A stretch of 53,160 nucleotides of DNA from an uncultured Rhabdothermincola sp. (GCA_964485515.1 CAZALT010000004.1:1-53160); one strand, 5' to 3'; positions 18,104 through 40,494 are shown, numbered from the stretch's first letter. Program-made: numbers and translations. The notes: generated from the sequence alone by a model not told the origin.

Positions 18104-18600
18104 CCAAACCCCTACCCGACGGTTCTGACGGACCGGACTACGAGCGCTTGCGTGACCGTCTCGGCCGCGGCGCGCCGTTCGTCGACCTCATCGGCGCACG
18201 CCTCGACGAGCTCGGACCGGGGTTCAGCGTCGTGTCTCTGGCGATGACCCCGTCGCTGACCAACGGGGTCGGCACGTTCCATGCCGGCGCCCTTTTCGCG
18301 GGCGCCGACACCGCGGCCGGATCGGCCGCGTTCGGGCTGCTCGCCACGGTGGCGCGTCTGCGCGAGGTCGTCCTGGTCACCCGCAACGCCGATATCGACT
18401 TCCGACAGCCGGCGAGCTCCGATCTGCTCGTGCGGGCGACGGTGCGCGGCAGCCACGACGAGCTGCTCGACCCATGGAGGGAGGAACGTCCGGTGCGCCT
18501 GCCCGTCGGCGTTGAGCTGTTCAGCGCCGCCCCGGAAGGTGCGAGACCGACGTGGGTCGGCACCGCCACCTTCACCTGCGTGGCGTGGCGCAACACCTGA
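18100..18600 (+). CDS. Hotdog-fold thioesterase (PaaI/4HBT-like)
   Basis: GTG 18100 overlaps the SDR stop (GTGA). GVGTFHAGALFAGADTAAG matches the PaaI-type G-x-x-H-G-G region loosely. About 166 aa. Confidence 0.75.
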   Translation: MTKPLPDGSDGPDYERLRDRLGRGAPFVDLIGARLDELGPGFSVVSLAMTPSLTNGVGTFHAGALFAGADTAAGSAAFGLLATVARLREVVLVTRNADIDFRQPASSDLLVRATVRGSHDELLDPWREERPVRLPVGVELFSAAPEGARPTWVGTATFTCVAWRNT

Positions 18601-18619
18601 GGCGCGACGCGTCGGGCGG

Positions 18620-20841: not shown

Positions 20842-21607
20842 CGACCCACCTCGGGGTCCGCTTCTCCCCGAAGGCCTTCGCCCCTTCGGCCGCGTCGGCC
20901 GACTTGCGTACCGGATCGACGATGGGCTCCTGGCGGTCGAAGACCTCGTGGACAGGCCAGTCGACCGACTCGCGCACGACTCGCTTCGAGGCAGCCGCGG
21001 CGAGCGGGGCGTTCGCCGCGACGACTGCGGCGAGCTCGAGGGCGGCCGGGAGCGCCTCGCCGGCAGGCGTGAGCCGGTTGATGAGCCCGAGCTCGAGTGC
21101 TCGGGCCGGCTCGATGGGCTCCCCCGAGAGGATCAGCTCCATGGCCTGGTGGTAGGGGATGCGGTGCGGCAGGCGGAAGAGGCCGCCGCCGCTCGCGGTG
21201 AGCCCCCGCTTGACCTCCGGGAGTCCGAAGCGGGCCCGTTCCGACGCCACGATGAGGTCGCAGGCCAGCACCACCTCGAAGCCGCCGCCCATGGCGGGGC
21301 CGTCCACCACGGCGATCAGCGGTTTGGTGGCGGGCTGCTTCACGATGCCGGCGAACCCGCGCGGGCCGAACACCATCTCCTCGCCGCGGGCGAACGCCTT
21401 GAGGTCCATGCCGGCGCAGAAGGCGGGACCGTTGCCGGCGATGACGCCGACGCGCAGCTCGGACTCGTCGTCGAGGCGATCGAGGGCCGCGGCGATGAGC
21501 GCCGACACCTCGGTGTTGATGGCGTTGCGGGCGTCGGGACGGTTGAGGGTGACGACGAGGATGCCATCGCCGACGACCTCGGTGAGAACGGGCGAGGTGT
21601 CGGTCAT
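20834..21607 (-). CDS. Enoyl-CoA hydratase/isomerase (crotonase) family
   Basis: 257 aa. LVVTLNRPDARNA, FCAGMDLK, VDGPAMGGGFEVVLACDL. Confidence 0.9.
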   Translation of the reverse strand: MTDTSPVLTEVVGDGILVVTLNRPDARNAINTEVSALIAAALDRLDDESELRVGVIAGNGPAFCAGMDLKAFARGEEMVFGPRGFAGIVKQPATKPLIAVVDGPAMGGGFEVVLACDLIVASERARFGLPEVKRGLTASGGGLFRLPHRIPYHQAMELILSGEPIEPARALELGLINRLTPAGEALPAALELAAVVAANAPLAAAASKRVVRESVDWPVHEVFDRQEPIVDPVRKSADAAEGAKAFGEKRTPRWVGA

Positions 21608-22362
21608 CGGGGCCCCATCCGCACGGCGCCGTCGAGGCGGATCGTCTCGCCGTTCAACATCCCGTTCCCGATGATCTGCATCGCCAGGTCGGCGTACTCG
21701 GCGGGATCACCGAACCGCCGAGGGTGCGGGGTGGTCTCCGCCAGCTTCTCGCGAGCGGCGTCGGGCACCCGGGCGAGCAGCGGCGTGTCGAACAGGCCGG
21801 GGGCGATGGTCGACACGCGGATCTGCTTGCTGGCGAGGTCTCGGGCGGCCACGAGCGTAAGTCCGACGATGCCCGCCTTCGACGACGCGTAGGCGGTCTG
21901 GCCGACCTGGCCCTCCCACGCCGCGACCGACGCCGTGAGGACGCACACGCCGCGGTCGCCGTCGACCGGGTCGTTCGTCGCCATCGACGCAGCGGCGAGG
22001 CGCAGCACGTTGTAGGTGCCGACGAGGTTGATCTCGATCGTGTCCTGGAACTCGTCGAGCGACCCCGGATTGCCGTCCCGGTCGAGGACGCGGACCGGGC
22101 CGCCTCGACCGGCGCAGTGCACCAGGGCGCGGAGGGGTGCGAGGTCGGCGGCCATGGCGACCGCCGCGTTGACCTGGTCGGTGTCGCGGATGTCGGCGGG
22201 GCTGAACCGTGCCCCGATGTCGGCCGCGACCTTGGCGCCGTCGGAGGACGGGAGGTCGACGATCACGACCGAGGAGCCTTCGGCGACGAGGCGCGTGGCG
22301 GCGGCCAGGCCGAGCCCGGAGGCCCCGCCGGTGACCAGGGAGCTGGACGATTGGAGGTGCAA
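21604..22362 (-). CDS. 3-hydroxyacyl-CoA dehydrogenase type II-like SDR
   Basis: 252 aa, TTG start. VTGGASGLGLA, ASVAAWEGQVGQTAYASSKAGIVG, APGLFDTP. ATGA overlap with the downstream hydratase start. Confidence 0.9.
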   Translation of the reverse strand: MHLQSSSSLVTGGASGLGLAAATRLVAEGSSVVIVDLPSSDGAKVAADIGARFSPADIRDTDQVNAAVAMAADLAPLRALVHCAGRGGPVRVLDRDGNPGSLDEFQDTIEINLVGTYNVLRLAAASMATNDPVDGDRGVCVLTASVAAWEGQVGQTAYASSKAGIVGLTLVAARDLASKQIRVSTIAPGLFDTPLLARVPDAAREKLAETTPHPRRFGDPAEYADLAMQIIGNGMLNGETIRLDGAVRMGPR

Positions 22363-22447
22363 GGCGGTCTCTGCTTTCGGGTGGAGATGGTGCTCGATCG
22401 GCGGGCGTGGCCAGGCGTAGAGGTCGAGCTGGACGGGGAGTCGAGGA

Positions 22448-23644
22448 TCAGATCGTCAGGTTCTCGATGAGCGTGGCGTTGGCCATGCCAGTGCCTTCGC
22501 ACATGACTTGGAGGCCGTAGCGGTTGCCCTCGGCGACGAGGTTGTGCACGAGCGTCCCCATGAGGCGGGTGCCCGACGCGCCGAGCGGGTGGCCGAGGGC
22601 GATGGCCCCGCCGAGCGGGTTGACCCGGTTGTCATCGATGCCGAACTCGCGCTGCCAGGCGAGCGGGATCGAGGCGAAGGCCTCGTTCACCTCGAACTGG
22701 GCGATGTCGTCGAGACGGACCCCGCTCGACGCGAGGATCTTCTCCGTCACCGGGATCGGACCGGTAAGCATCAGGATCGGGTCGGAACCGCACACGGCGA
22801 ACGAGTGGAACCGTGCGAGCGGTCGGAGGTCGAGCGCGGCGGCGCGCTCGGCGCTCATGATGAGCATGGCGCTGGCGCCGTCGGCGAACTGGGAGGAGTT
22901 GCCGGCGGTGACGCTCCAGCTGATCTCCGGGAAGCGGGCGGCCATCTCGTCGTCCTCGAACGACGGGTTGAGGCCGCGGAGTCGCTCGGTGGTGGTGCCG
23001 GCCCGGATCGTCTCGTCGTGCTCGACGCGCACGGCCCCGTCTTCGCCCGGCACGAAGATCGGCGTGATCTCCCTGGCGAACCGACCGCTCGTCGCGGCGT
23101 CGTCGGCTCGGGCGTGGGACCGGGCGGCGAAGTCGTCCATCTCGGAGCGGGAGATGTCCCATCTGGCGGCGATGAGCTCCGCGGCGATTCCCTGGGACAC
23201 CAGTCCGGGCGCGTACCGCGCCTCGACGGAGGGGCCAAACGGATCGACCCCCATGCGAGCGAGTCCCATGGGTACCCGGCTCATCGATTCGAGTCCGCCG
23301 ACGACGGCGACGTCGTAGGCGCCGGCCATGATCGCCTGGGCGCCGAAGTGGGCGGCCTGCTGGCTCGATCCGCAACGGCGATCGATCGTGACGGCCGGGA
23401 CGTGCTCGGGTCCGTCGGCGGCGAGCCAGGCCGCTCGGCCGGGGCAACCAGCCTGATCCTTGGCCTGGCTGACGCACCCGATGAGGACGTCATCGACGGT
23501 TCCCGGGTCGATTCCGGTGCGGTCGAGGAGCGAGCGGATGGTCTGGGCGAGGAGCTCGACCGCGTGCAGACCAGAGAGGGCGCCACCCGGCTTTCCCCGT
23601 CCCATGGGGGATCGGACGGCCTCCACGATCACGGCTTCGGTCAT
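22448..23644 (-). CDS. Thiolase (acetyl-CoA C-acyltransferase)
   Basis: 398 aa. Nucleophile region RRCGSSQQA, NEAFAS, GGAIALGHPLGASG, C-terminal CEGTGMA. SD GAGGAG. Confidence 0.95.
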   Translation of the reverse strand: MTEAVIVEAVRSPMGRGKPGGALSGLHAVELLAQTIRSLLDRTGIDPGTVDDVLIGCVSQAKDQAGCPGRAAWLAADGPEHVPAVTIDRRCGSSQQAAHFGAQAIMAGAYDVAVVGGLESMSRVPMGLARMGVDPFGPSVEARYAPGLVSQGIAAELIAARWDISRSEMDDFAARSHARADDAATSGRFAREITPIFVPGEDGAVRVEHDETIRAGTTTERLRGLNPSFEDDEMAARFPEISWSVTAGNSSQFADGASAMLIMSAERAAALDLRPLARFHSFAVCGSDPILMLTGPIPVTEKILASSGVRLDDIAQFEVNEAFASIPLAWQREFGIDDNRVNPLGGAIALGHPLGASGTRLMGTLVHNLVAEGNRYGLQVMCEGTGMANATLIENLTI

Positions 23645-23697: not shown

Positions 23698-23798
23698 TTT
23701 CTGCCAAGTCGAAAGTTGGCCGCTCGCGACGCTCGCGACACCTCGCGCTGCCGCCAGCCGTTGTCCGATCGCTCGCCGCTGATCACCGGGAGATGCAC

Positions 23799-24980
23799 AT
23801 GTCCATGTATTGGGAACCGAAGCTCGACGACGTCGGCGTGAAGTGGCGAGATCTCGCCGAGCAGCTCACCGCCGACGTGTTCGCACCTCGAGCGGCCGAG
23901 CTCGACCTTGAGGGCCGCTATCCGTGGGACAGCGTGGCGCTCCTCGTCGAGAGCGGCCTGGCCGCTCCCTTCGTGCCGGTCGAGTACGGCGGCCACGGCT
24001 TGCCGCTGACCGCCGTGTGCGCCGTTGCCGAAGCCGTATCACGCGGGTGCGCCTCGACCGGCGCCATCCTGAGCGCCTACGCCCTGGGTGCGGTCCCGAT
24101 CATCCTCGCCGGCACCGACGAGCAGAAGGCCGCGTACCTCGGCGAGGTCGTCCGCGGCAACGCCGTCAGCTTCGCCCTCACCGAGGTCGGCGCCGGCAGC
24201 GATGCCTCGGCCATCAAGACCACGGCCGTACCCGAAGGCGGCGGCTGGCGCATCCGCGGCGAGAAGATCTACATCGGCAATGGCGGTGCCTCGAAGTACT
24301 ACATCGTCTTCGCCCGCATCGAGGAAGGCGAGGGAGCAGGGAAGCTCACGGCGTTCTTCGTCGAGAAGGACACGCCCGGCGTGGTCATCGATCGGCTCGA
24401 AGAGAAGATGGGCATCCGCGGCACGATGACCAGCAACCTCAAGCTCGACACCGTCGTGCCCGACGACGCCATCCTCGGCGAGCGGGGCAAGGGCCTGCGC
24501 CTCGCGCTGCAGACCCTCAACCTCGGCCGCATCTCGGTGGCCGCCCAGTCGACCGGGGTCGGCCTCGCCGCGCTCGACGCCGCCGTGGCCGAGGCCTCAC
24601 GACGCTCGACCTTTGGCACGCCGATCATCCAGCACCAGGGCATCGGCTTCCGCCTGGCCGACGCGGCCACGCAGCTCACGCTCGCCCGCATGGTCACCTA
24701 TGAAGCGGCGGCGACCTACGACAACGGCGGCGACGTGTCGATCCTCGGCGCGATGGCCAAGCTCCACGCCAGCGAGGCCGCCCACTTCGCCGCCGACGCC
24801 GCGGTCCAGGTCTTCGGCGGCGACGGCTACTGCCAGCCCTGCATCGCCGAACGCCTCTACCGCGACCAGCGCGTGCTCGAGATCTACGAAGGCACATCGG
24901 AGATCCAGCGCGTCGTGATCTCCCGGCGGCTGCAGGTCGACGCCGACAAGCAGCGCGAGGCCGCCCTCGTCGAGAGCTGA
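23799..24980 (+). CDS. Acyl-CoA dehydrogenase (canonical MCAD/SCAD-type)
   Basis: ORF 23460..24980 trimmed to ATG 23799 (three in-frame ATGs at 23793/23799/23805; GGGAG at 23788-23792). FALTEVGAGSDA, IYIGNGG, EIYEGTSEIQRVVI. Confidence 0.9.
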   Translation: MSMYWEPKLDDVGVKWRDLAEQLTADVFAPRAAELDLEGRYPWDSVALLVESGLAAPFVPVEYGGHGLPLTAVCAVAEAVSRGCASTGAILSAYALGAVPIILAGTDEQKAAYLGEVVRGNAVSFALTEVGAGSDASAIKTTAVPEGGGWRIRGEKIYIGNGGASKYYIVFARIEEGEGAGKLTAFFVEKDTPGVVIDRLEEKMGIRGTMTSNLKLDTVVPDDAILGERGKGLRLALQTLNLGRISVAAQSTGVGLAALDAAVAEASRRSTFGTPIIQHQGIGFRLADAATQLTLARMVTYEAAATYDNGGDVSILGAMAKLHASEAAHFAADAAVQVFGGDGYCQPCIAERLYRDQRVLEIYEGTSEIQRVVISRRLQVDADKQREAALVES

Positions 24981-25065: not shown

Positions 25066-25716
25066 CTACTTGGTCAGGCCGCCGACCACGAAGTTCGCCA
25101 TGGACTCGGCGATCTCCTGCTTGCGGGAGACGTCGCCGTCGACCCGCGGGTTGTACCAGACGCTCATCCAGTTGAGGGATCCGAGGACCGCCTTGGCGAG
25201 GATGCCGGCGTCGTTGCCCGCGAACTCGCCCGCCTCGATGCCCTGTGCGATGACGTCCTCGAAGCGCTCCTCGTAGTCGGCCCGCAGGGAGAAGACCTCG
25301 TCGATCTGCTCTTGGCGCGTGCGGCCCTCGCTCGCCAGGGTCATCTCCGCGTGCTGGACGGCGAGGCGCATGAAGCTGGTCTCGTTCATCATGAGCTCGG
25401 CGTGCGCCTCGGCCATAGCCCAGAGGCGCTCCCGGGGCGAGGCCGGTCCGCTGGTGTAGGGGGTCACGGCATCGATGGCGAGCTCGAGCGCGCGGCGATG
25501 GATGCCGACGAAGATCTCGCCCTTGGTGCGGAAGTAGTGGTACACCCGGCCCTTGGTGGCGCCGAGGCGGTCGGCGATGTCGTCGATGGAGGTTGCGGCG
25601 TAGCCACGCGTGGTGAACGCCTCGGCCGCGGCGGTGAGCACGGCGTTGCGGCCGGCCGACTGGCGGTCGGACAGGGCGGTTCGGGACTCAGAGTCGGTCT
25701 TGGCTGGGGGAACCAC
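25066..25716 (-). CDS. TetR/AcrR-family transcriptional regulator
   Basis: 216 aa, GTG start. HTH block ILTAAAEAFTTRGYAATSIDDIADRLGATKGRVYHYFRTKGEIF. Confidence 0.9.
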   Translation of the reverse strand: MVPPAKTDSESRTALSDRQSAGRNAVLTAAAEAFTTRGYAATSIDDIADRLGATKGRVYHYFRTKGEIFVGIHRRALELAIDAVTPYTSGPASPRERLWAMAEAHAELMMNETSFMRLAVQHAEMTLASEGRTRQEQIDEVFSLRADYEERFEDVIAQGIEAGEFAGNDAGILAKAVLGSLNWMSVWYNPRVDGDVSRKQEIAESMANFVVGGLTK

Positions 25717-25829
25717 GGAATACCTCGTTCGGGGGAGTCTGGACCCGGTGTCGGCGGGTCCGGTGGGGCGTCAGGAGCTGATGGCAGCGTGCAATCGTCA
25801 GAGAGGTCGGATCCGCCGCCGCCGGGGCG

Positions 25830-25848
25830 ATACTACTAAGTCGGTTGA
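25830..25848 (-). promoter_or_regulatory. Island operator/promoter motif, copy D (plus-strand ATACTACtaAGTcGGTTGA)
   Basis: One mismatch to consensus. TAGTAT reads on the minus strand, 114 nt upstream of the tetR start. Confidence 0.55.
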
Positions 25849-25960
25849 AGGGTACGGGTGATGAGCGTGCCTCAGTGTCGATCGATGAGTTAGAGGCTCG
25901 TGGATGCCCGCATGCCGTCACGGTGTCGGTTGAGCAACTTGACAAATGTCTCATCCCCTA

Positions 25961-25979
25961 CGAACCTACTCAGTAGTAT
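25961..25979 (+). promoter_or_regulatory. Island operator/promoter motif, copy E (cgAACCTACTcaGTAGTAT)
   Basis: Opposed to copy D in the same divergent region. The TAGTAT hexamer (25974-25979) overlaps ATG 25978. Confidence 0.6.
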
Positions 25980-26778
25980 GTACTCGCTCACCTGGGGAGA
26001 GATCTTGGATTACAAGCGCTTCGAGCCCACCCTGACCGTCGAGGTGGACGGACCGGTCCGCATCGTCACCCTCAACCGCCCCGACGACCTGAACTCGGTC
26101 GACGACGCCCTCCACAACGGCCTGCGCCGGGTGTGGGACGCGCTGATCGACGACGAGGAGGCCGAAGCTGTCGTCATCACCGGGGCGGGCCGTGCGTTCT
26201 GCTCGGGTGGCTACCTCCCGAACTTCGCCCGCAACCACACCGACGTCGTCGCCCGCCGCAAGGACATCCGCGAGGCTGAACGCCTCGTGAAGGCCATGCT
26301 CGAGTGCGAGCTGCCGATCGTCGCCGCGGTGAACGGTCCCGCCGTCGGACTCGGCTGCTCGCTCGCCGCCATGTCCGACATCGTCGTCATGGCCGATGAC
26401 ACGTTCATGTCCGACCCGCACGTGAGCGTCGGCCTCGTCGCCGGCGACGGCGGGCCGCTCGCCTGGCCGTTCATGATGAGCCTGCTCAAGGCCAAGGAGT
26501 ACATCCTGCTCGGCGATCGGATCCCCGCGGACGAGGCACTGCGCCTCGGGCTCGCCAACCGGCTCGCCCCGCGCGACGAGGTCGTCGCCCAGGCCACCGC
26601 GCTGGCTCATCGCCTCGCCGCCCAGCCCACGCAGGCGCTGCGCGACACCAAGCGGTCGCTCAACCTCGCCCTCATCCAGGCCGCGAACCTCATCATGCCG
26701 TTCGCCCTGGCCACCGAAGGCGACTCCTTCGGCACCGAAGATGTGCGGCGCAAGGTCGACGAGTTCTTCAACAAATGA
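25978..26778 (+). CDS. Enoyl-CoA hydratase/isomerase family
   Basis: ORF 25900..26778. VRIVTLNRPDDLNS, FCSGG, VNGPAVGLGCSLAAMSD. The first ATG (25978) lies inside the -10-like TAGTAT. An alternative TTG at 26005 is preceded by GGGGAGAG and would give MDYKRFEPTLTVEVDG... Confidence 0.85.
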   Translation: MYSLTWGEILDYKRFEPTLTVEVDGPVRIVTLNRPDDLNSVDDALHNGLRRVWDALIDDEEAEAVVITGAGRAFCSGGYLPNFARNHTDVVARRKDIREAERLVKAMLECELPIVAAVNGPAVGLGCSLAAMSDIVVMADDTFMSDPHVSVGLVAGDGGPLAWPFMMSLLKAKEYILLGDRIPADEALRLGLANRLAPRDEVVAQATALAHRLAAQPTQALRDTKRSLNLALIQAANLIMPFALATEGDSFGTEDVRRKVDEFFNK

Positions 26779-26823
26779 TGGATCGACTGCTGGCCCGAGG
26801 GGCCCACCGCGTTCGGATCGGTC

Positions 26824-27888
26824 GTGCTCGGCGTCGGACCAAGGTCGGGTGAGGTCGTGGACTCACGCGAAACGGACCTCGTTCCCACCCGAGCACTCGA
26901 CGCGTGGCTCGGCGACCGGCTCCCCGGTCCGGGCCCGCTGGCCGTGGAGCGCGTCACGACCGGGCACTCCAACGAGCTGTTCCGCATCTCACGGGGCGAG
27001 GACAACTGGATGCTGCGTCGACCACCGCGCGTGTCGAACACGCCCGGCGCCCACGACATGGCTCGGGAGTACCGGGTGCTCACCGCACTGGAAGGCACGT
27101 CGGTGCCGCACGCGACGCCCCGTGGGCTGTGTGACGACGAGTCCGTCATCGGCGCGCCGTTCTACGTCGTCGACCAGATCATCGGCACCCCGCTCTACGA
27201 CGAGATCCCCAAATCACTAGCCGGCGAACGGATTGCGATCGCGAACGAGATGATCGACGCGCTCGCCGCGCTGCATCGAGTCGACTGGCAGGCAGCGGGT
27301 CTCGACGGCTTCGGCCGACCCGACGGCTACGCCGAGCGGCAGGCCGCTCGCTGGGGCAAGCAGCTCGCGTCCTACGCGTTCCGCGACCTCCCGGAGCTCG
27401 ACGAGGTCGCGGCGTGGATCGACGCAGAGTGCCCCGGCACGAGCGGCGCCACGCTGATCCACGGTGACTACGGGCTCCACAATGTGATGTTCGCCCCGTC
27501 AGCACCTGCCGAGCTGCTCGCCATCATCGACTGGGAGACCTCGACGATCGGCGACCCCCTCGCCGATCTCGGCTACCTGCTCGCGTTCTGGCTCCAGCCC
27601 GAGGACTACCCGCAGTGGGCCGAGCTCGGGCCCGCCTACCCGCTCGACGGGTTCCCCGATCGCGACGCCCTCATCGCCCGCTACGCCGCCGCCGTCGGCA
27701 CGGAGCTCACCGCCGACGACCTTCGTTGGTACCGCGTGCTGGGGCACTTCAAGATCGCCGTCATCCTCGAAGGCTCCTATGGACGCTACGTGCGGGGCGA
27801 GGCCGACGACGAGTACTTCGCATCACTGGATGAGCGCGTGCCCCTGCTGGCACGGCATGCGCTCGCCATCGCCGCAAACGACGCCTAG
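26824..27888 (+). CDS. Phosphotransferase (APH-like kinase) family, ACAD10/11 N-domain / LvaA-like
   Basis: 354 aa (GTG start; an alternative GTG at 26857 follows GGTGAGG). TTGHSNELFRI, Brenner motif LIHGDYGLHNVMF, IDWETSTIGDPLADLG. Confidence 0.85.
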   Translation: MLGVGPRSGEVVDSRETDLVPTRALDAWLGDRLPGPGPLAVERVTTGHSNELFRISRGEDNWMLRRPPRVSNTPGAHDMAREYRVLTALEGTSVPHATPRGLCDDESVIGAPFYVVDQIIGTPLYDEIPKSLAGERIAIANEMIDALAALHRVDWQAAGLDGFGRPDGYAERQAARWGKQLASYAFRDLPELDEVAAWIDAECPGTSGATLIHGDYGLHNVMFAPSAPAELLAIIDWETSTIGDPLADLGYLLAFWLQPEDYPQWAELGPAYPLDGFPDRDALIARYAAAVGTELTADDLRWYRVLGHFKIAVILEGSYGRYVRGEADDEYFASLDERVPLLARHALAIAANDA

Positions 27889-27902
27889 GAGGCAGCAGCA
27901 CC

Positions 27903-29180
27903 ATGTGGGACTTCTCAACCGAACCGGAGATCGAGAAGGAGCTGGACTGGATCCGGTCCTTCGTCCACGACGAGATCGAACCGCTCGAGACGCTCGACCT
28001 CGACGACGCGGCGATGCAGGCGGCGATGGCGCCGCTCAAGCAGGAGGTCAAGGACCGTGGTCTGTGGGCGGCGCACCTGCCACCCGAGCTCGGCGGCCAG
28101 GGCTTCGGCCAGGTCCGGTTGGCGCTCATCCACGAGATCCTCGGCCGCTCGTTCCTCGCCCCGCTCGTGTTCGGCAACCAAGCGCCCGACTCGGGCAACG
28201 CCGAGCTCCTCGCGCACGCCGCGACCGCCGAGCAGAAGGCCAACTGGCTCGACCCGCTGCTCGCCGGTGAGGTCCGCAGCTGCTTCGCCATGACCGAGCC
28301 CGGCGCCGGCGCCGACCCGACGCTGCAGACGACCTCCGCCCGCCTCGAAGGTGGCGAGTGGGTCCTCGACGGCATGAAGTGGTTCGCCTCCAACGCGTCG
28401 ATCGCCGACGTGTTCATCGTGATGGCCGTGACCAACCCGGAGGCCGCGCCCCACGCACGAGCCTCGATGTTCGTCGTGCCGGCCGGGACCCCCGGTCTCG
28501 TCGTGGAGCGCGACATCCCCACGATGGAGCACCCGTACGACCGCGCCCCCGCCTATGGCAACCACGCCGAGGTGTCGTTCACGAACTGTCGCATCCCCGC
28601 CGACGCCATCCTCGGGGGAGAGGGCCAGGGCTTCGCCCTCGCCCAGACCCGGCTCGGCCCCGGCCGCATCCACCACTGCATGCGCTGGCTCGGCCAGAGC
28701 GAGCGGGCGCTCGAGATGATGTGCGAACGCGCCGTGTCTCGCTTCATCCACGGCTCGGTCCTGTCCGACAAGCAGATGATCCAGGAGTGGGTCGCCGAGT
28801 CCGTCGCCGAGCGCCAGGCCGCCCGACTGATGACGTTGCACGCGGCGTGGAAGATCGACACCGAAGGCGTGCGCGGCTCGCTCACCGAGATCGCCATGAT
28901 CAAGTTCTGGGGCGCCCGCGTCCTCTACAACGTGATCGACCGCTCGATCCAGGTGCACGGATCGCTGGGCTACAGCTCCGACCTCCCGCTCGAGTTCATG
29001 TACCGCCAGGCCCGCGCCGCCCGTCTGTACGACGGGCCGGACGAGGTCCACAAGGTCACGGTCGCCCGACGTCACCTGCGCGGGATCGAGCCGCGGGGTG
29101 TGCCGTCCGAGCACGTGCCGAGCCGGCGCAAGGAAGCCGAAGCCCGCTTCGCCGACCTGCTGTCGTCGATCGATGCCTGA
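27903..29180 (+). CDS. Acyl-CoA dehydrogenase, ACAD10/11-like subfamily
   Basis: 425 aa, SD AGGAGG. FAMTEPGAGADP, MKWFASNA, and LYDGPDEVHKVTVARRHL at the position of the usual YEGTSEIQ (Asp/Gly instead of the MCAD-type Glu). Confidence 0.9.
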   Translation: MWDFSTEPEIEKELDWIRSFVHDEIEPLETLDLDDAAMQAAMAPLKQEVKDRGLWAAHLPPELGGQGFGQVRLALIHEILGRSFLAPLVFGNQAPDSGNAELLAHAATAEQKANWLDPLLAGEVRSCFAMTEPGAGADPTLQTTSARLEGGEWVLDGMKWFASNASIADVFIVMAVTNPEAAPHARASMFVVPAGTPGLVVERDIPTMEHPYDRAPAYGNHAEVSFTNCRIPADAILGGEGQGFALAQTRLGPGRIHHCMRWLGQSERALEMMCERAVSRFIHGSVLSDKQMIQEWVAESVAERQAARLMTLHAAWKIDTEGVRGSLTEIAMIKFWGARVLYNVIDRSIQVHGSLGYSSDLPLEFMYRQARAARLYDGPDEVHKVTVARRHLRGIEPRGVPSEHVPSRRKEAEARFADLLSSIDA

Positions 29181-30165
29181 TCCGGGTCAGGCCGCCGAGG
29201 CCCCGCCGGCCGACGAGGCCACCGCGCTGTCCGACCTGCTCGCCGACAGCCCGACCAACTGGGGTCGGTGGGGCGACGACGACGAGGTCGGTGCCGCCAA
29301 CTTCCTCGGCACGGCCGAGATCCTCGCCGGGGTCGCCGCCGCCCAACAGGGCAAGGTCTTCACGCTGCAGCTGCCCATCGGCAACAAGGGCGGGGACCCG
29401 GTGTGGCCGGGGCGCGGCGTGTCGCAGCACCTGATGGTGATCGACCGGAGCCACTTCGCCCACAACCGGGTCAAGAAGTTCCCGGGCGGCATCGAGTACG
29501 CCGACGACCACCTCAGCACGTACCTGCAGGGCACCACGCACTGCGATGCGCTCGGCCACGCCTGGTACGGCGACGAGATCTGGAACGGCTACTCGGCCGA
29601 CAGCACGATCGGCCACATGGACCACGCGTCGGTGCTCCCGCTCGCCGAGCGCGGCATCGTCGGTCGGGCCGTGCTGCTCGACATCGCCCGGTTCCGGGAG
29701 CAGGACTACCTCGAGCCCGGCGACACGTTCGACCACACCGACCTCGAGGTGTGCGCCTCGGCGCAGGGCATCGAGATCGCGCCGCACGACATCATCCTCG
29801 TGCGGACCGGGTGGCTGCGTCGCTTCTTCGAGGTCGGCTCGCGGAACTTCTACCAGGGCTTCAACGAGCCCGGCCTGACCTACAGCCCCGACCTGGTCGA
29901 GTGGTTCAAGGGTCGTGAGGTCCCGGCGCTCGTCACCGACACGATGGCCAACGAGGTCACGATCGACCCCGAGTCGAAGGCCGCGCTCCCGCTGCACGGC
30001 GCGCTCATGCGCAACCTCGGCGTCGTGTTCATGGAGATGGCCTGGCTCGACGACCTGGCCGCCGACTGCGCCGACGACGGCGTGTGGACCTTCCTCTTCG
30101 CCGGCGCCCCCCTCAAGGTCGCGTCCGCAACGGGCTCCCCGGTCAACCCCATCGTCATCAAGTAG
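29173..30165 (+). CDS. Cyclase-family (kynurenine formamidase-like) metal hydrolase
   Basis: ORF 29098..30165 trimmed to ATG 29173 (8-nt overlap with the ACAD stop). NWGRWGDDDEVGAANFL, GTTHCDALGH (variant of HxGTHxDxPxH), VRTGW. Confidence 0.8.
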   Translation: MPDPGQAAEAPPADEATALSDLLADSPTNWGRWGDDDEVGAANFLGTAEILAGVAAAQQGKVFTLQLPIGNKGGDPVWPGRGVSQHLMVIDRSHFAHNRVKKFPGGIEYADDHLSTYLQGTTHCDALGHAWYGDEIWNGYSADSTIGHMDHASVLPLAERGIVGRAVLLDIARFREQDYLEPGDTFDHTDLEVCASAQGIEIAPHDIILVRTGWLRRFFEVGSRNFYQGFNEPGLTYSPDLVEWFKGREVPALVTDTMANEVTIDPESKAALPLHGALMRNLGVVFMEMAWLDDLAADCADDGVWTFLFAGAPLKVASATGSPVNPIVIK

Positions 30166-30242
30166 CTGCCAGCGTTCCGCCACCCATCGGCGTCGTTTGC
30201 GTGCGCAGTGCCCCATCCAGGAGCCGCCAGCGCGACGGGTGG

Positions 30243-31001
30243 TCAGTAGACCGAGCCGCCGTCTACTCGGATGATGGCGCCTGTTGTGTAGCTGCTGGCG
30301 TCGGAGGCGAGGTAGAGGGCGGTGCCGACGACCTCGTCGGGCTCGCCGATGCGCTTGAGGGCGTACTGCGCGGCTTCCTCGTCGATCTCGTCCATGTCCC
30401 AGTGCTGGGCGACGTCGGTGCGGAAGCGGCCGACCATGATGCAGTTGACCCGCACCTGCGGGCCGTAGGCCCGGGCGAACGAGAGCGTGATCGAGTTGAG
30501 CCCGGCCTTGGCGGCGGCGTAGGGGATCACGGCGGGATTCGGGTTCACGCCAGCCATGCTCGAGATGTTGATGATCGACCCGCCGCCGTCCTCGATCATG
30601 CGCTCGCCGAACAGCGCGCTGAGCCGGTACGGCCCGCGCAGGTTCACGTCGAGCACCTTGTCGTAGAGGTCCTGGGTGACGTCGCTCGGCTTGTCGTAGA
30701 GCGGTGACATGCCGGCGTTGTTCACGAGGACGTCGACGCGGCCGAACTCGCTGTAGGCGGCTTCGTAGAGCGCGTCGCAGTCGTCCCACTTGCCGACGTG
30801 CGTGCCGACCGGCAGGGCGCGGCGGCCCGTGGTGGCGGTGACCTCGTCGGCCAGCTCCTGGCACGACTCGATGCGACGGCTGGCGATGACGACGTCGGCT
30901 CCCGCCCGTGCGTAGCCGAGGGTCATGGCGCGGCCGAGCCCCCGGCTTCCTCCGGTGACCACGACGACCTTGCCCTCGACGGAGAACGACGGATCTGTCA
31001 T
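30243..31001 (-). CDS. SDR-family oxidoreductase
   Basis: ORF 30243..31220 trimmed to ATG 31001 (GAAAGG 7 nt upstream). VVTGGSRGLGRA, NNAGM, YAAAKAGL. Confidence 0.9.
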   Translation of the reverse strand: MTDPSFSVEGKVVVVTGGSRGLGRAMTLGYARAGADVVIASRRIESCQELADEVTATTGRRALPVGTHVGKWDDCDALYEAAYSEFGRVDVLVNNAGMSPLYDKPSDVTQDLYDKVLDVNLRGPYRLSALFGERMIEDGGGSIINISSMAGVNPNPAVIPYAAAKAGLNSITLSFARAYGPQVRVNCIMVGRFRTDVAQHWDMDEIDEEAAQYALKRIGEPDEVVGTALYLASDASSYTTGAIIRVDGGSVY

Positions 31002-31050: not shown

Positions 31051-31234
31051 CATTTTGTGTCGCCGCGACGCAAGGTGTCGTTACTTGCCGAGCCCCCTCG
31101 CGGGCCGGACGGCCACGCGCTGGCACACCGCCATCGCCGGCCGACGAACGAAGGGTCGCCACTCCGCTCGACGGACGAGGCGGCCGACACCACACCGAAC
31201 GACAGGCCACCGGCCGACAAAGAGGGTGAACGAC

Positions 31235-32263
31235 GTGTTCTTCGAGTTGACGGAAGACCAGGAGTTTCTGAAGCGGAGCGCGGAGGAGGTCGTCGCCGAT
31301 CTCTTCTCGGATGCGACCATCCGCGCCGCGCTCGATGACGACGAGGGCAAGATCCGCAGCGACAGCTGGGCCCAGCTCGTGGAGCTGGGCTGGGCGGGCG
31401 TCCTCGTGCCGGAGGCGCTCGGCGGTTCGGGTGGGTCGGTGGTCGATGCCTGCATCCTCGCCGAGGTGCTGGCCGCGTCGCTCGCGCCGGTGCCCTTCGT
31501 GGGCACGGCGATCGGCGTCGCGTCGGTCCTCGCCGCCGTCGGCGACGACGCCGCGCAGCGCGACCTCGCCGCCGGGACGCCCATGGCGCTCGCCCTCGAC
31601 GGGCGCCTGCGATGGGGCACCGCGAACCCGGGCCTCGCCTTCGACTGGATCGTCGGCGCCGAGGTCGTGCAGGTCGTGGATCCCGCCACCGGTGAGATCC
31701 GCCGAACGGTCGCCGAGCCGACCGGCATCGACCGGTTCGACCAGCTCCACCCGATGTCCCGCATCGATGACCTCCCGACCCAGGGCACCGAGCTCTCCGA
31801 CGAGCTCCGACGGGCGCTCGCCATCACCCAGGTCGGCGCCGCGGCCGCGTCGCTCGGGCTCGCCGCAGCCGCGCTGCGCGAAGCGGTGGCCTACTCGCTG
31901 GAACGCCAGCAGTACGGCCGGGCGATCGCGCAGTTCCAGGCCGTCCAGCACCTGTGCGCCGACATGTACGTCGATGTCGAGTCGACCCGTTCGCTGGCCT
32001 ACGGCGCGGCGTGGGCGGTCGAGAACGAACCGGTCGACGAGGCCGTGCGCGTCGCCGCAGCCGCGACCGCCTGGTGCGGACCCGCCGCGATCCGCGTCGT
32101 CGAGACCGGCATCCAGGTGCTCGGCGGCATCGGCGTCACGTGGGAGCACGACGCCCACCTCCGCCTCCGCCACGCGCAGCTGCTCGACCGGGCGTTCGGC
32201 AACCCCGACGCCGCTCGGGAGCACCTCGCCGCCCTGGCCCTCACCGCCTCCGAGGAGAACTGA
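31235..32263 (+). CDS. Acyl-CoA dehydrogenase family protein, beta-type subunit
   Basis: ORF 31055..32263 trimmed to GTG 31235 (AGAGGG 8 nt upstream; GTG 31226 is also possible). WAQLVELGWAGVLVPEALGGSG, QQYGRAIAQFQAVQH, VLGGIGVTWEHDAHLRLR. Confidence 0.8.
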   Translation: MFFELTEDQEFLKRSAEEVVADLFSDATIRAALDDDEGKIRSDSWAQLVELGWAGVLVPEALGGSGGSVVDACILAEVLAASLAPVPFVGTAIGVASVLAAVGDDAAQRDLAAGTPMALALDGRLRWGTANPGLAFDWIVGAEVVQVVDPATGEIRRTVAEPTGIDRFDQLHPMSRIDDLPTQGTELSDELRRALAITQVGAAAASLGLAAAALREAVAYSLERQQYGRAIAQFQAVQHLCADMYVDVESTRSLAYGAAWAVENEPVDEAVRVAAAATAWCGPAAIRVVETGIQVLGGIGVTWEHDAHLRLRHAQLLDRAFGNPDAAREHLAALALTASEEN

Positions 32264-32264
32264 C

Positions 32265-33407
32265 ATGGATCTGCGAGACAGCCCTGAGCAAGCCGAGTTC
32301 CGAGCCCGCCTCCGCGAGTGGCTCGACGAGAACCTCCCCAGCGAGCCCGAGCCCGAACACCTGGCCGAGCGCTTCGCCTTCATGGTCGCCTGGCAGCAGG
32401 CGCTCTATCGAGGCGGGTGGGTCGCGCTGTCGTGGCCGACCGAGTACGGCGGTCAGGGCCTGAGCGTCCTCGAGGAGGCCATCCTCAACGAGGAGCTCGG
32501 CCGGGCCGGTGCGCCGACGTCGCTCCCGCTCAACTACCTCGGTCGCCCGCTCCTCACGCACGGCACCGAAGAGCAGCGGTCGCGCTACCTGCCCGATCTC
32601 TTGTCGGCGGAGACCATCTGGTGCCAGGGCTTCTCCGAGCCCGGCGCGGGATCGGACCTCGCGTCCTTGCGCACCAAGGCCACTCCCGCGGATGACGCCG
32701 AGGGCGGCTGGGTCATCTCCGGCCAGAAGCTCTGGACGAGCTTCGGCGCGTTCGGCGACATGTGCCTCCTCCTGGCGCGCACTTCCAACCAGGGTCCGAA
32801 CTACGAAGGGATCTCGGCGTTCGTGGTCCCGATGGACGCCGAGGGCGTCACGGTGCGTGCGGTGGTCATGGGCAACGGCGACGCCGAGTTCGCCGAGATC
32901 TTCCTCGACGACGTCAAGGTCGGGCCGGACGCGCTGCTCGGCGAGCTGGGCGACGGATGGGCCATCGCCCAGGCGACCATCAGCTACGAGCGCGGTGCGG
33001 TCGACATCGGCTACCAGGCGAAGTTCACCCGCATGTACGCCGAGCTCGTCGCCGAGGTGGCGGAGCGCGCCGTCGACGACGTCGGCATCCGGCGCCGACT
33101 CGGTGAGGTGGCTACCTACCTCGAAGTTCTGCGCATGCACAGCCTGCGTCGCCTCTCGGCCCGCACGGACGGGTCGCTGCCGGGCCCGGAGAGCTCGGTC
33201 GACAAGCTGCTCATGACCCGCGTGGAGCAGCTGCTGCTCGAGACGGCGATGGACCTGTGCGACGACCACCTCGGTGGGCGACGATCCGCGTGGTTCGACC
33301 GCTACCTCTATGCCCGGTCCGGGAGCATCTACGGCGGGTCGGCCCAGATCCAGCGCAACATCTTGGCGCTGCGCGTCCTCGGCATGCGCGTCAAGAAGGC
33401 CGCCTGA
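32265..33407 (+). CDS. Acyl-CoA dehydrogenase, alpha-type subunit
   Basis: ORF 31311..33407 trimmed to ATG 32265 (1 nt after the previous stop, SD GAGGAG). WPTEYGGQG, FSEPGAGSDLAS, KLWTSFG, IYGGSAQIQRNILA. Confidence 0.9.
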   Translation: MDLRDSPEQAEFRARLREWLDENLPSEPEPEHLAERFAFMVAWQQALYRGGWVALSWPTEYGGQGLSVLEEAILNEELGRAGAPTSLPLNYLGRPLLTHGTEEQRSRYLPDLLSAETIWCQGFSEPGAGSDLASLRTKATPADDAEGGWVISGQKLWTSFGAFGDMCLLLARTSNQGPNYEGISAFVVPMDAEGVTVRAVVMGNGDAEFAEIFLDDVKVGPDALLGELGDGWAIAQATISYERGAVDIGYQAKFTRMYAELVAEVAERAVDDVGIRRRLGEVATYLEVLRMHSLRRLSARTDGSLPGPESSVDKLLMTRVEQLLLETAMDLCDDHLGGRRSAWFDRYLYARSGSIYGGSAQIQRNILALRVLGMRVKKAA

Positions 33408-33409
33408 CC

Positions 33410-34288
33410 ATGGGTGTGGGGGTCGAACTGGGGGACGGGTCGGAGCAGGGGACCGAGTACGAGGAGATCATCTACGAGGTCGTCGATCCGGTGGCGACGA
33501 TCACGCTCAACCGGCCCCAGGCGCTCAATGCCTGGACGCCGCGCATGGGCGCCGAGCTCGACGACGCGCTCCGGCGCGCCACCGAGGACACGTCGGTCGT
33601 CGGCATCGTGATCACCGGCGCCGGTCGCGGGTTCTGCGCCGGTGCCGACATGGACGTGCTGGCCGATTCGGCCAAGCCGGGCGGGCCGCGGCCCGTGCGT
33701 CCGACCGCGGGTGACCTCTCGTGGGGCGACGACTTCCGGGGGGTGTTCACCTCGATCCTGTCGGTGCCGAAGCCAACGATCGCCGCGATCAACGGCGCGG
33801 TCGCCGGCATGGCGGTCGCCATGGTCCTGTCCTGCGACCTGCGCTTCATGGCCGCCGAGGCCAAGTTCACGACGGCGTTCGCTCGCCGTGGCCTGGTGTC
33901 CGAGTGGGGGACCAGTTGGTTGCTCCCGCGCATCATCCATCCCGCCGACGCGCTCGATCTGCTCCTGTCCGGTCGGATCATCCAGGGTGAGGAGGCGCAC
34001 GGCATGGGCCTCGTCAACCGCGTGGTCGCGGACGGCAGCGTTGCCGAAGCGGCCCAGGACTACGTGCGCGACCTGGCCGAGCACTGCTCGCCGACGTCGA
34101 TGGCCACCATCAAGCGGCAGGTCTACCAGCAGCTCCACGCCGGTCCGCAGCTGTCATCGGGCCTCGGTCCCGCCGAGCGTGAGGCGGCCCAGCTCATGGA
34201 GGAGACGCTCCAGTCGGAGGACTTCGCCGAGGGTGTCGCGGCCTTTGACGAGAAGCGTGCCGCGGTCTACCGCCGCGTCGGTCTCTGA
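33410..34288 (+). CDS. Enoyl-CoA hydratase/isomerase family
   Basis: ORF 33257..34288 trimmed to ATG 33410. ATITLNRPQALNAW, GRGFCAGADM, INGAVAGMAVAMVLSCDL. Confidence 0.85.
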   Translation: MGVGVELGDGSEQGTEYEEIIYEVVDPVATITLNRPQALNAWTPRMGAELDDALRRATEDTSVVGIVITGAGRGFCAGADMDVLADSAKPGGPRPVRPTAGDLSWGDDFRGVFTSILSVPKPTIAAINGAVAGMAVAMVLSCDLRFMAAEAKFTTAFARRGLVSEWGTSWLLPRIIHPADALDLLLSGRIIQGEEAHGMGLVNRVVADGSVAEAAQDYVRDLAEHCSPTSMATIKRQVYQQLHAGPQLSSGLGPAEREAAQLMEETLQSEDFAEGVAAFDEKRAAVYRRVGL

Positions 34289-40451: not shown

Positions 40452-40494
40452 CGACCCGAACTGCACGAGGACGACGACGAGCAAGGAGCGCACC

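What the first reader, a model, noticed from the sequence alone, without database searches (positions are those of the whole stretch)
26824..30165. Split ACAD10/11-type (LvaA/LvaC-like) kinase + acyl-CoA dehydrogenase module, followed by a cyclase-family hydrolase
An APH-fold kinase is followed 14 nt later by an acyl-CoA dehydrogenase. The kinase has intact catalytic motifs (HGDYGLHN, IDWE). The dehydrogenase's C-terminal signature is LYDGPDEVH instead of the usual YEGT(S/A)EIQ.

That motif and the kinase-ACAD pairing are what I recall for mammalian ACAD10/ACAD11 (where the two are fused) and for Pseudomonas putida LvaA/LvaC. In those systems the kinase phosphorylates a 4-hydroxyacyl-CoA and the ACAD-fold enzyme eliminates phosphate to give an enoyl-CoA, routing gamma-hydroxy acids into beta-oxidation.

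Here the pair is embedded in an operon with a crotonase upstream and a cyclase/amidohydrolase-like protein overlapping downstream by 8 nt. This suggests a complete route for a hydroxylated or lactone-derived acyl-CoA. P450 hydroxylation elsewhere in the island could generate such intermediates.
Basis: partly seen in the sequence, partly recalled or inferred. Interest (0 to 1): 0.65.

Follow-up and report, generated by a model that had tools for sequence, protein, structure and literature searches.

The report
Bacterial split ACAD10/11-type kinase–dehydrogenase pair
Two adjacent genes in an actinobacterial fat- and ring-degrading gene island encode the separate bacterial versions of the two halves of mammalian ACAD10/ACAD11; they most likely remove a blocking 4-hydroxyl group from acyl-CoAs through a phosphate ester, a known kind of system here seen in an untested branch.

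Summary
The four genes are tightly packed on the + strand: a crotonase-like gene, an APH-fold kinase (26824-27888), an ACAD 14 nt later (27903-29180) and a cyclase-family gene that overlaps the ACAD by 8 nt.

Mouse and human ACAD11 are among the best solved-structure matches for both the kinase and the ACAD. The ACAD keeps every residue that the ACAD11 study links to phosphate elimination: D377 in place of the catalytic Glu, R250, the H258-C-M-R261 motif and P95. The reading as a split ACAD10/11 (LvaA/LvaC-like) module is supported.

There are three qualifications.
- The ACAD lies in an uncharacterised actinobacterial clade that is sister to the ACAD11 clade. It is 43% identical to ACAD11 and has a conserved C-terminal tail.
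- Its kinase has Gly where partners of ACAD11-like enzymes have Lys or Arg (HGDYGLHN).
- The cyclase is not a conserved partner. It is absent from all 80 ACAD loci and all 5 close relatives. Its relatives usually sit beside an acyl-CoA ligase, and it belongs to a metal-dependent esterase/lactonase-type subfamily (5IBZ).

The upstream crotonase travels with the pair in most close relatives but lacks both hydratase glutamates.

Verdict: a new member of a known kind, of moderate interest.

The parts
25066..25716 (-). TetR-family regulator, divergent from the operon; likely local repressor
   Evidence: Pfam TetR_N + TetR_C_24. Orthologues at 60-62% identity lie next to the ECH-kinase-ACAD module in L085 and L086, and a TetR of the same Pfam type lies about 800 nt upstream of the pair in L168. 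The regulatory role is inferred.
25978..26778 (+). Crotonase-superfamily protein (EchA15/3RRV-like) without the two hydratase glutamates; first gene of the operon and the partner that most often accompanies the pair in close relatives
   Evidence: Pfam ECH_1 4e-40. Best PDB match 3rrv at 1e-74, then EchA15. In place of GGGxE and PE it has GLGCSL and DPHV, compared with the canonical ECH at 20834-21607. Orthologues at 73-76% identity sit directly upstream of kinase-ACAD (L085, L086), of the ACAD (L087) or of the cyclase (L001).
26824..27888 (+). APH-fold small-molecule kinase of the ACAD10/11 kinase family (LvaA-like)
   Evidence: PDB matches: 3dxp 6e-60, 9o56 2e-58, mouse ACAD11 kinase domain 1e-50, next family 8e-11. 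Residues present: R65 (beta3), R81-E82 (alphaC), R172 (= ACAD11 R176), D215/N220 (= D220/N225) and D236-W-E238. It differs at Gly217, where the family has Lys/Arg.
27887..27892 (+). Shine-Dalgarno AGGAGG for the ACAD, overlapping the kinase stop codon (translational coupling)
   Evidence: Sequence read directly; 10 nt before ATG 27903.
27903..29180 (+). ACAD10/11-type acyl-CoA dehydrogenase-fold enzyme (predicted 4-phosphoacyl-CoA phosphate eliminase), actinobacterial clade with a C-terminal tail (residues ~394-425)
   Evidence: PDB matches: 4hr3 2e-86, human ACAD11 2e-79, mouse ACAD11 5e-79, best ordinary ACAD 2e-48. R250, R255, H258-C-M-R261, D377 and P95 equal R626, R631, H634-C-M-R637, D753 and Pro463. 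D377 aligns with the Glu of YEGT. The tail has invariant residues P401, E403, H404, P406, R408.
29173..30165 (+). Cyclase-like (PF04199) metal-dependent hydrolase of the MGS0169/5IBZ carboxylesterase subfamily; locus-specific addition to the operon
   Evidence: Pfam Cyclase 1e-18. Only PDB match is 5ibz at 1.9e-55, which is MGS0169, a Mn-stimulated esterase. Motif Q119-x3-H123-x-D125-x3-H129 plus R81, H275 and E288. It overlaps the ACAD stop by 8 nt.

Best explanation
The kinase and the ACAD form a two-enzyme device that lets beta-oxidation pass a hydroxyl group at C4. The kinase uses ATP to phosphorylate the 4-hydroxyl of a 4-hydroxyacyl-CoA. The ACAD-fold enzyme uses Asp377 as base, a bound FAD that is reduced and re-oxidised within one turnover, and the R250/H258/R261 cluster to hold the phosphate. 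It then eliminates phosphate to give a 2-enoyl-CoA, with no net oxidation and no need for an electron acceptor.

The two genes are translationally coupled. They sit in a probably TetR-controlled operon inside an actinobacterial island for CoA-dependent breakdown of oxygenated, probably alicyclic or branched, compounds. The substrate is most likely a hydroxy-acyl-CoA formed when a P450-hydroxylated or lactone-derived acid has been shortened until the hydroxyl reaches C4.

The cyclase-like gene is a metal-dependent ester or lactone hydrolase that may supply a hydroxy acid, but it is an addition particular to this locus. The crotonase-like gene is the pair's usual companion in close relatives, and its reaction is unknown.

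What is shown: gene order, family membership and conservation of the catalytic residues. What is inferred: the substrate, the chemistry in this clade, and the roles of the cyclase and the crotonase.
For: - Both proteins have ACAD11 among their top solved-structure matches, far ahead of other families.
- The ACAD keeps the catalytic Asp, the upstream Arg, the HCMR motif and the helix-breaking Pro. Two papers tie these to 4-phosphoacyl-CoA turnover. In my sample 89 of 89 family members keep the Pro, the two Args, the His and the Met, and 88 of 89 keep the Asp.
- Ordinary ACADs in the same window have Glu/Gly, Thr, Val and Gln/Gly at these positions.
- The kinase keeps the catalytic Asp/Asn, DWE, the beta3 Arg, the alphaC Glu and the Arg that contacts CoA in ACAD11.
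- A related kinase lies within 8 kb in 42 of 80 ACAD loci and within 400 nt in 30.
- The kinase sits directly upstream of the ACAD in L085, L086 and L168, close relatives whose ACADs are 81-85% identical.
- The Shine-Dalgarno sequence overlaps the kinase stop.
- Bacterial split pairs of this family have been shown to do this chemistry: P. putida LvaA/LvaC and B. pseudomallei orthologues.
- The surrounding genes are thiolases, ACADs, crotonases, SDRs, CoA-transferases, P450s and a luciferase-like monooxygenase.
Against: - No enzyme of this actinobacterial clade has been assayed. The clade is sister to, not inside, the clade holding ACAD11 and 4hr3, at 43-45% identity.
- Most members of that clade in my sample have no related kinase within 8 kb (15 of 20 with enough flank).
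- The kinase has Gly at the position two residues after the catalytic Asp. All partners of ACAD11-like enzymes have Lys/Arg there, and a preprint reports that Lys as essential in a bacterial homologue.
- The same preprint shows that bacterial homologues of this kinase phosphorylate 1-O-alkylglycerols in vitro.
- No acyl-CoA ligase is adjacent, and no LvaB-like gene lies between kinase and ACAD.
- No expression data were found; only DNA metagenome runs hold the sequence.
Confidence: 0.62

Rival explanations
1. The pair uses the same phosphorylate-then-eliminate logic on a different class of substrate. Candidates are a hydroxylated ring- or steroid/terpenoid-derived CoA thioester rather than a straight-chain 4-hydroxy fatty acyl-CoA, possibly with a different hydroxyl position. 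The crotonase-like protein would be an obligatory third component.
For: - The ACAD belongs to a separate clade with a conserved C-terminal tail.
- The kinase active-site motif co-varies with the ACAD clade: K/R in clade B, H/Q/R/G in clade A.
- The orthologous modules in Mycolicibacterium sit among KshA-like Rieske, KstD-like flavoprotein, ChsH2/Ltp2-like and alpha/beta ACAD genes.
- The helix-breaking Pro widens the pocket for bulky substrates.
- The non-canonical crotonase travels with the ACAD in most close relatives.
Against: The phosphate-binding and catalytic residues are identical to those of ACAD11, which argues for the same C2-C4 geometry. No direct evidence for any particular substrate exists. 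The steroid-like neighbours are seen in relatives, not in this window.
Confidence: 0.2
2. The kinase has a substrate that is not a CoA ester, such as an alkylglycerol-like lipid alcohol or another hydroxylated small molecule. Its adjacency to the ACAD then reflects shared regulation rather than a coupled reaction.
For: A 2026 preprint reports that prokaryotic ACAD10-kinase homologues phosphorylate 1-O-alkylglycerol, some of them stimulated by acetyl-CoA. Many clade-A ACADs have no kinase nearby.
Against: The genes are translationally coupled, and kinase-ACAD adjacency recurs across phyla. The ACAD's Arg/His cluster only makes sense for an anionic (phospho) substrate. The CoA-contacting Arg is kept. 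The window holds no ether-lipid genes.
Confidence: 0.1
3. The ACAD is an ordinary FAD-dependent alpha,beta-dehydrogenase for bulky acyl-CoAs, and the kinase is an antibiotic-type phosphotransferase.
For: Automatic names given by source databases are 'acyl-CoA dehydrogenase family protein', and Pfam calls the kinase APH. An older structural paper proposed sterol-type substrates for ACAD11-like enzymes.
Against: Asp replaces the catalytic Glu, and the phosphate-binding residues are all present. Matches to aminoglycoside, viomycin and capreomycin kinase models score 21-32 bits against cut-offs of 205-400. The ACAD10/11 function has since been shown experimentally.
Confidence: 0.05

Closest known systems
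Mammalian ACAD10 / ACAD11 (fused kinase-ACAD; mouse ACAD11 cryo-EM 8V3U/8V3V, human ACAD11 2WBI)
   Same: Both halves are homologous: kinase 33.5% and ACAD 43% identity. The ACAD keeps the catalytic Asp, R626, R631, the H634-C-M-R637 motif and the E-helix Pro. The kinase keeps D220/N225, DWE and R176.
   Different: Here there are two separate genes, with the kinase first and a 14-nt gap. There is no HAD domain. The ACAD is in a sister clade and has an extra, conserved C-terminal tail of about 30 residues. The kinase has Gly instead of Lys two residues after the catalytic Asp.
Pseudomonas putida LvaA/LvaC (lva operon) and the Burkholderia pseudomallei orthologues
   Same: A bacterial split kinase plus ACAD10/11-type enzyme, shown to convert 4-hydroxyacyl-CoA via 4-phosphoacyl-CoA to enoyl-CoA.
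   Different: No adjacent LvaE-type ligase and no LvaB-type small gene between kinase and ACAD. The neighbours here are a non-canonical crotonase and a cyclase-like esterase.
Mycobacterial/actinobacterial FadE2-like ACAD, PDB 4HR3 (called Mtb4HR3_A in PMC11153573), function unassigned
   Same: Best solved-structure match (2e-86, 45% identity), with the same DGPDEVH segment and an R...HH(A/C)MR helix.
   Different: 4HR3 groups with ACAD11, not with the window protein, in the NJ tree. It has HAMR rather than HCMR and lacks the C-terminal tail.
MGS0169 (PDB 5IBZ), a metal-dependent carboxylesterase of the cyclase-like family; trans-dienelactone hydrolase of P. reinekei MT1 is reported to share its motif
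   Same: The cyclase gene product matches 5IBZ at 1.9e-55. It keeps D125, H129, R81, H275 and E288, the equivalents of D133, H137, R87, H286 and E299, and it keeps the first Gln of the modified motif.
   Different: The second motif position is His here. It is Gln in MGS0169 and in 115 of 121 homologues. The natural substrate is unknown for both proteins.

Membership tests
ACAD10/11-LvaC-type ACAD (4-phosphoacyl-CoA phosphate eliminase) | Catalytic Asp in place of the ACAD catalytic Glu (mouse ACAD11 D753) | tested here: met
   D377 lies in LYDGPDEVH. It aligns with the D of LADGPDEVH in ACAD11 and with the E of IYEGTSEIQ in an ordinary ACAD.
ACAD10/11-LvaC-type ACAD (4-phosphoacyl-CoA phosphate eliminase) | Phosphate-binding helix: Arg626 plus the His634-Cys-Met-Arg637 motif | tested here: met
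   R250-LGPG-R255-IH-H258-C-M-R261 is identical to ACAD11 over 12 residues. Ordinary ACADs in the window have T, V and Q/G at these positions.
ACAD10/11-LvaC-type ACAD (4-phosphoacyl-CoA phosphate eliminase) | Helix-breaking Pro in the E helix (human ACAD11 Pro463) | tested here: met
   P95 in NQAPDSGN matches CQAPDTGN of ACAD11. It is present in 89 of 89 family members sampled.
ACAD10/11-LvaC-type ACAD (4-phosphoacyl-CoA phosphate eliminase) | Groups with ACAD10/11 and LvaC rather than with other ACADs | tested here: inconclusive
   It is much closer to ACAD11 than to any other solved ACAD (2e-79 against 2e-48). In an NJ tree, however, it falls in an actinobacterial clade sister to the one holding ACAD11 and 4HR3. 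LvaC was not available, and the tree has no support values.
ACAD10/11-LvaC-type ACAD (4-phosphoacyl-CoA phosphate eliminase) | [quoted passage not shown] | not testable with these tools
   This needs an enzyme assay.
ACAD10/11-LvaA-type kinase (APH fold) | Catalytic loop HxDxxxxN and metal-binding DWE | tested here: met
   H213-G-D215-YGLH-N220 and D236-W-E238.
ACAD10/11-LvaA-type kinase (APH fold) | Beta3 Arg/Lys paired with the alphaC Glu; CoA-contacting Arg (ACAD11 R176) | tested here: met
   R65, E82 (with R81 beside it) and R172 align with the corresponding residues of ACAD11, 3dxp and 9o56.
ACAD10/11-LvaA-type kinase (APH fold) | Lys/Arg two residues after the catalytic Asp (HxDxK; reported essential in the C. 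thermarum enzyme) | tested here: not met
   Gly217 here and in L085, L086 and L168. All 34 kinases found next to clade-B ACADs that could be scored have K or R, except one with Q. Clade-A partners have H, Q, R or G.
ACAD10/11-LvaA-type kinase (APH fold) | Encoded next to, or fused with, an ACAD10/11-type ACAD | tested here: met
   14-nt gap with the SD overlapping the stop. The same adjacency is seen in 30 of 80 loci.
lva operon (lvaABCDE) | Adjacent acyl-CoA synthetase (LvaE), 4-oxoacyl-CoA reductase (LvaD) and small LvaB protein | tested here: inconclusive
   No AMP-binding gene lies within about 9.5 kb (the nearest is 15784-17295), and there is no room for a gene between kinase and ACAD.
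MGS0169-type cyclase-like metal-dependent carboxylesterase | Modified motif Gln-x3-Gln-x-Asp-x3-His plus Arg87, His286 and Glu299 | tested here: inconclusive
   The window protein has Q119-x3-H123-x-D125-x3-H129, so the second position is His, not Gln. R81, H275 and E288 are present and invariant in 121 of 121 homologues. Sequence match to 5IBZ is 1.9e-55.
Canonical enoyl-CoA hydratase (crotonase) | Two catalytic glutamates (GGGxE... and ...PE...) | tested here: not met
   The gene at 25978-26778 has Ser and His at these positions. The ECH at 20834-21607 in the same window has both Glu. Its nearest solved relatives are 3RRV and EchA15, which share the substitution.

The most novel reading that the evidence does not exclude
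The crotonase-like protein, the Gly-variant kinase and the clade-A ACAD form a dedicated three-part module of actinobacterial islands that degrade alicyclic, terpenoid or steroid-like compounds. The module clears gamma-hydroxy CoA esters produced by ring oxygenation. In this contig it has been joined to a cyclase-like gamma-lactonase, so that lactone to hydroxy acid to CoA ester to phosphoester to enoyl-CoA is encoded as one route. The locus L093, with cyclase, ligase and kinase in a row, would be a second, independent assembly of the same route.
Probability: 0.2. Interest if true: 0.55.

Novelty: new member of a known kind. Interest (0 to 1): 0.36.

Why it matters
The phosphorylate-then-eliminate route for 4-hydroxy acids was worked out only recently, in P. 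putida in 2017 and in mammals in 2024-2025. Databases still label these genes 'acyl-CoA dehydrogenase' and 'phosphotransferase'.

This locus suggests the route is also built into actinobacterial catabolic islands, including orthologous modules in culturable Mycolicibacterium species. It also points to an untested sister clade of the enzyme pair with its own sequence signatures. That gives a concrete candidate for how hydroxylated or lactone-derived intermediates of alicyclic compound breakdown get past the C4-hydroxyl block in beta-oxidation.

The finding does not reveal a new principle.

Tried and rejected
- **Exact look-up of the window ACAD in the assembly collection:** not on record. The window is itself a whole metagenome contig.
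- **Cyclase as a conserved third member:** rejected. It is absent from 80 of 80 ACAD loci and from the close relatives L085, L086, L087, L168 and L169. Only L093 (and, weakly, L106) of 84 cyclase loci has a related kinase.
- **Upstream crotonase as the hydratase for the enoyl-CoA product:** not supported, because both catalytic Glu are missing.
- **Aminoglycoside or peptide-antibiotic kinase:** rejected on NCBIfam scores far below the cut-offs.
- **Promoter, terminator and operator scans of 25600-30400 and the TetR intergenic region:** nothing usable.
- **Rand et al. 2017 (lva operon paper):** not held in the library, so details on LvaB and LvaC come second-hand.
- **RNA evidence:** none. Only DNA metagenome runs hold the sequence.
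- **Second APH-like gene at 9609-10874:** checked against the PDB with no match. It is not of the ACAD10/11 kinase type by tblastn.
- **First motif regex:** it was wrong by one position and was corrected.


Full report
**Observation.** The window is about 70% G+C and is a complete metagenome contig. Four genes are tightly packed on the + strand between 25978 and 30165.
- A crotonase-family gene, probably 25978-26778.
- An APH-fold kinase, 26824-27888.
- An acyl-CoA-dehydrogenase-fold gene, 27903-29180.
- A cyclase-family (PF04199) gene, 29173-30165.

The kinase stop and the ACAD start are 14 nt apart, and an AGGAGG ribosome-binding site overlaps the stop. The ACAD stop and the cyclase ATG overlap as ATGCCTGA. 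A TetR gene lies divergently upstream.

**What the two core proteins are.** Against all solved structures, the ACAD's best matches are 4HR3 (2e-86), human ACAD11 (2e-79) and mouse ACAD11 (5e-79). The best ordinary ACAD reaches only 2e-48. The kinase's best matches are:
- 3DXP (6e-60);
- 9O56 (2e-58), probably the Caldalkalibacillus ACAD10-kinase homologue described in a 2026 preprint;
- the kinase domain of mouse ACAD11 (1e-50);
- the next family at 8e-11.

NCBIfam has no specific model for either protein. Antibiotic-kinase models score far below their cut-offs.

**Family-defining residues.** The ACAD11 structure paper names the features that distinguish this group: a catalytic Asp (D753) in place of Glu, an HCMR motif (H634-R637) and an upstream Arg (R626) that hold the 4-phosphate, with R631 common to all ACADs. 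A second paper adds a helix-breaking Pro.

The window ACAD has R250-LGPG-R255-IH-H258-C-M-R261, identical to ACAD11 over twelve residues. It also has D377 and P95. A direct alignment with the ordinary ACAD at 23793-24980 puts D377 opposite the Glu of YEGTSEIQ, and puts T, V/A and Q/S opposite the phosphate-binding residues.

The kinase keeps the catalytic Asp/Asn (D215, N220), DWE (236-238), the beta3 Arg (R65), the alphaC Glu (E82) and R172, the equivalent of the CoA-contacting R176 of ACAD11.

**Where it departs from the characterised enzymes.** I scanned one genome per species with an alignment of the ACAD's relatives and obtained 80 loci. A neighbour-joining tree of these, with ACAD11, 4HR3 and outgroups, splits the family in two. 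One clade holds ACAD11, 4HR3 and most bacterial sequences. The other is an actinobacterial clade of proteins of about 428 residues that holds the window protein. No support values were computed for this tree.

The window protein is 43% identical to ACAD11, 45% to 4HR3 and 82-85% to proteins of Mycolicibacterium elephantis and M. thermoresistibile. Its clade carries a C-terminal tail (about residues 394-425) with invariant residues that ACAD11-like proteins lack.

The kinase motif co-varies with the ACAD clade. Partners of ACAD11-like ACADs have Lys or Arg two residues after the catalytic Asp. Partners of the actinobacterial clade have His, Gln, Arg or Gly. The window and its three closest relatives have Gly in the motif HGDYGLHN. 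A preprint reports that Lys as essential in a bacterial homologue. One reported family feature is therefore not met, and the chemistry in this clade is inferred rather than shown.

**Gene neighbourhood across genomes.** A related kinase lies within 8 kb in 42 of the 80 loci and within 400 nt in 30. The usual order is ACAD then kinase (21 loci). The window's order, kinase then ACAD, occurs in 5. Within the actinobacterial clade most sampled members have no related kinase nearby (15 of 20 with enough flank), and their neighbours are unrelated genes.

The window's close relatives are more uniform.
- L085 and L086 (Mycolicibacterium-like) have crotonase, kinase and ACAD in a row, at 74-75%, 68-69% and 83-85% identity.
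- L168 has kinase and ACAD adjacent.
- L087 has crotonase, a small ORF and then the ACAD, with a kinase 7 kb away.
- None of these, nor L169, has a cyclase.

The Mycolicibacterium loci also share orthologues of the window's TetR, SDRs, alpha/beta ACADs, a Thiolase_C_1 protein and a P450, together with KshA-like and KstD-like genes. The same gene set therefore recurs in rearranged form.

**The cyclase.** No cyclase homologue occurs in any of the 80 ACAD loci. Starting from the cyclase, its homologues (about 60% identical across Burkholderia, Cupriavidus, Pseudonocardia and others) sit beside unrelated genes.
- Of the 11 homologue loci at 50% identity or more with enough downstream sequence, 7 have an AMP-forming acyl-CoA ligase directly downstream.
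- The closest long contig, L001, has an orthologous crotonase (76%) followed directly by the cyclase (71%), with no kinase or ACAD. L001 also shares the window's 14260-23644 block.
- In a metagenome scan of 80 cyclase loci, none has an ACAD10/11-type ACAD, and only L093 has a clearly related kinase. L093 runs cyclase, ligase, kinase and then ends.

The cyclase's only solved relative is 5IBZ (1.9e-55). This is MGS0169, a Mn-stimulated carboxylesterase with a modified motif Gln-x3-Gln-x-Asp-x3-His. Its authors also find that motif in a trans-dienelactone hydrolase. The window protein has Q119-x3-H123-x-D125-x3-H129 and the three other active-site residues named in that paper.

The cyclase is therefore best read as a metal-dependent ester or lactone hydrolase whose product is a carboxylic acid destined for CoA activation. 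Its link to the kinase-ACAD pair is particular to this contig and possibly to L093.

**The crotonase.** It travels with the ACAD in most close relatives, but it is not a canonical hydratase. It has Ser and His where the canonical crotonase at 20834-21607 has the two catalytic glutamates. Its nearest solved relatives are 3RRV and EchA15, which have the same substitutions. From memory, the His...Asp spacing resembles the catalytic dyad of 6-oxocamphor hydrolase, which is also among the PDB matches at 2.5e-25. I could not test that alignment, so it is only a lead.

**Mechanism.** The best-supported reading is the published one for this family.
1. The kinase phosphorylates the 4-hydroxyl of a 4-hydroxyacyl-CoA.
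2. The ACAD-fold enzyme abstracts the alpha-proton with Asp377 and passes a hydride to FAD and back.
3. It expels the phosphate, which is held by R250, H258 and R261, to give a 2-enoyl-CoA.

The island supplies plausible sources of such substrates. It has three P450s, a PhyH-type dioxygenase, a luciferase-like monooxygenase, several SDRs, CoA-transferases and full beta-oxidation sets. A hydroxyl on an even-numbered carbon reaches C4 after rounds of beta-oxidation. This last step is inference.

I put 0.62 on this reading and 0.2 on the same logic applied to a bulkier or ring-derived CoA ester with the crotonase-like protein as a required partner. I put 0.1 on a kinase substrate that is not a CoA ester, as in the alkylglycerol preprint, and 0.05 on an ordinary dehydrogenase plus an antibiotic kinase.

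**Novelty and verdict.** Split bacterial kinase and ACAD10/11-type pairs are known and have been assayed (P. putida Lva and B. pseudomallei). Adjacency is common across phyla. This is a new member of a known kind.

The modestly new points are the uncharacterised actinobacterial clade with its tail and its variant kinase motif, the recurring non-canonical crotonase, the setting in Mycolicibacterium-type catabolic islands, and the hint of a lactone-to-beta-oxidation route. Interest is 0.36.

Noticed in passing
window 9609-10874 (+): A second APH/EcKL-type kinase gene (Pfam APH 3e-14, EcKL 2e-12) lies between a nitronate-monooxygenase-like gene and a periplasmic binding-protein gene. It has no match in the PDB and none at E<=0.01 in the 84 loci then held, so it is not of the ACAD10/11 kinase type.
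   Followed up: partly
window 14260-23644 versus L001 370-9071: A block runs CoA-transferase A/B, PaaK-like ligase, SDR, alpha/beta ACAD pair, crotonase, SDR, thiolase. It is conserved at 54-73% identity in metagenome contig L001. There the orthologous crotonase and cyclase are adjacent, so the kinase-ACAD pair looks like an insertion between them, or a loss in L001.
   Followed up: partly
L093 790-4794: A metagenome contig has a cyclase-like gene (53% identical), an AMP-forming ligase and an ACAD10/11-type kinase (40% identical) in a row on one strand. The contig ends about 200 nt after the kinase, so whether an ACAD follows is unknown.
   Followed up: partly
L005-L084 (kinase genes next to the ACADs): The residue two positions after the catalytic Asp of the kinase tracks the clade of the neighbouring ACAD. 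It is K/R with ACAD11-like ACADs, H/Q/R with the actinobacterial clade, and G in the window's subclade, where the residue before the Asn changes from D to H as well.
   Followed up: partly
window 18620-20841 (-) and 31055-33407 (+): Two pairs of adjacent ACAD genes are present, and at least one member of each pair has an incomplete domain set. This is the pattern of alpha2beta2 heteromeric ACADs (ChsE-type) of sterol side-chain breakdown. One member (31311-33407 frame) has Gly at the catalytic position.
   Followed up: no
window 37814-41745 (+): A luciferase-like monooxygenase, a Thiolase_C_1 (Ltp2/SCP-x-like) protein and a family III CoA-transferase lie in a row after an ABC transporter. The same run follows the orthologous ACAD in L169. 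No separate ChsH2-type OB-fold gene was seen in the window.
   Followed up: no
L087 9640-9948: A 102-residue ORF with no Pfam match sits between the orthologous crotonase and the ACAD, where the window has the kinase. Its relation to LvaB could not be checked.
   Followed up: no
window 45693-46454 (-) and 33410-34288 (+): Two further crotonase-family genes in the window also lack one or both canonical glutamates in the four-way alignment. Only one of the four crotonases (20834-21607) looks like a standard hydratase.
   Followed up: no
window 6564-7241 (+), 36166-36600 (-): These are ORFs with very high third-position G+C but unusually low first-position G+C. 6564-7241 had no Pfam match and 36166-36600 was not scanned. 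They may be real small genes or artefacts of the composition filter.
   Followed up: no
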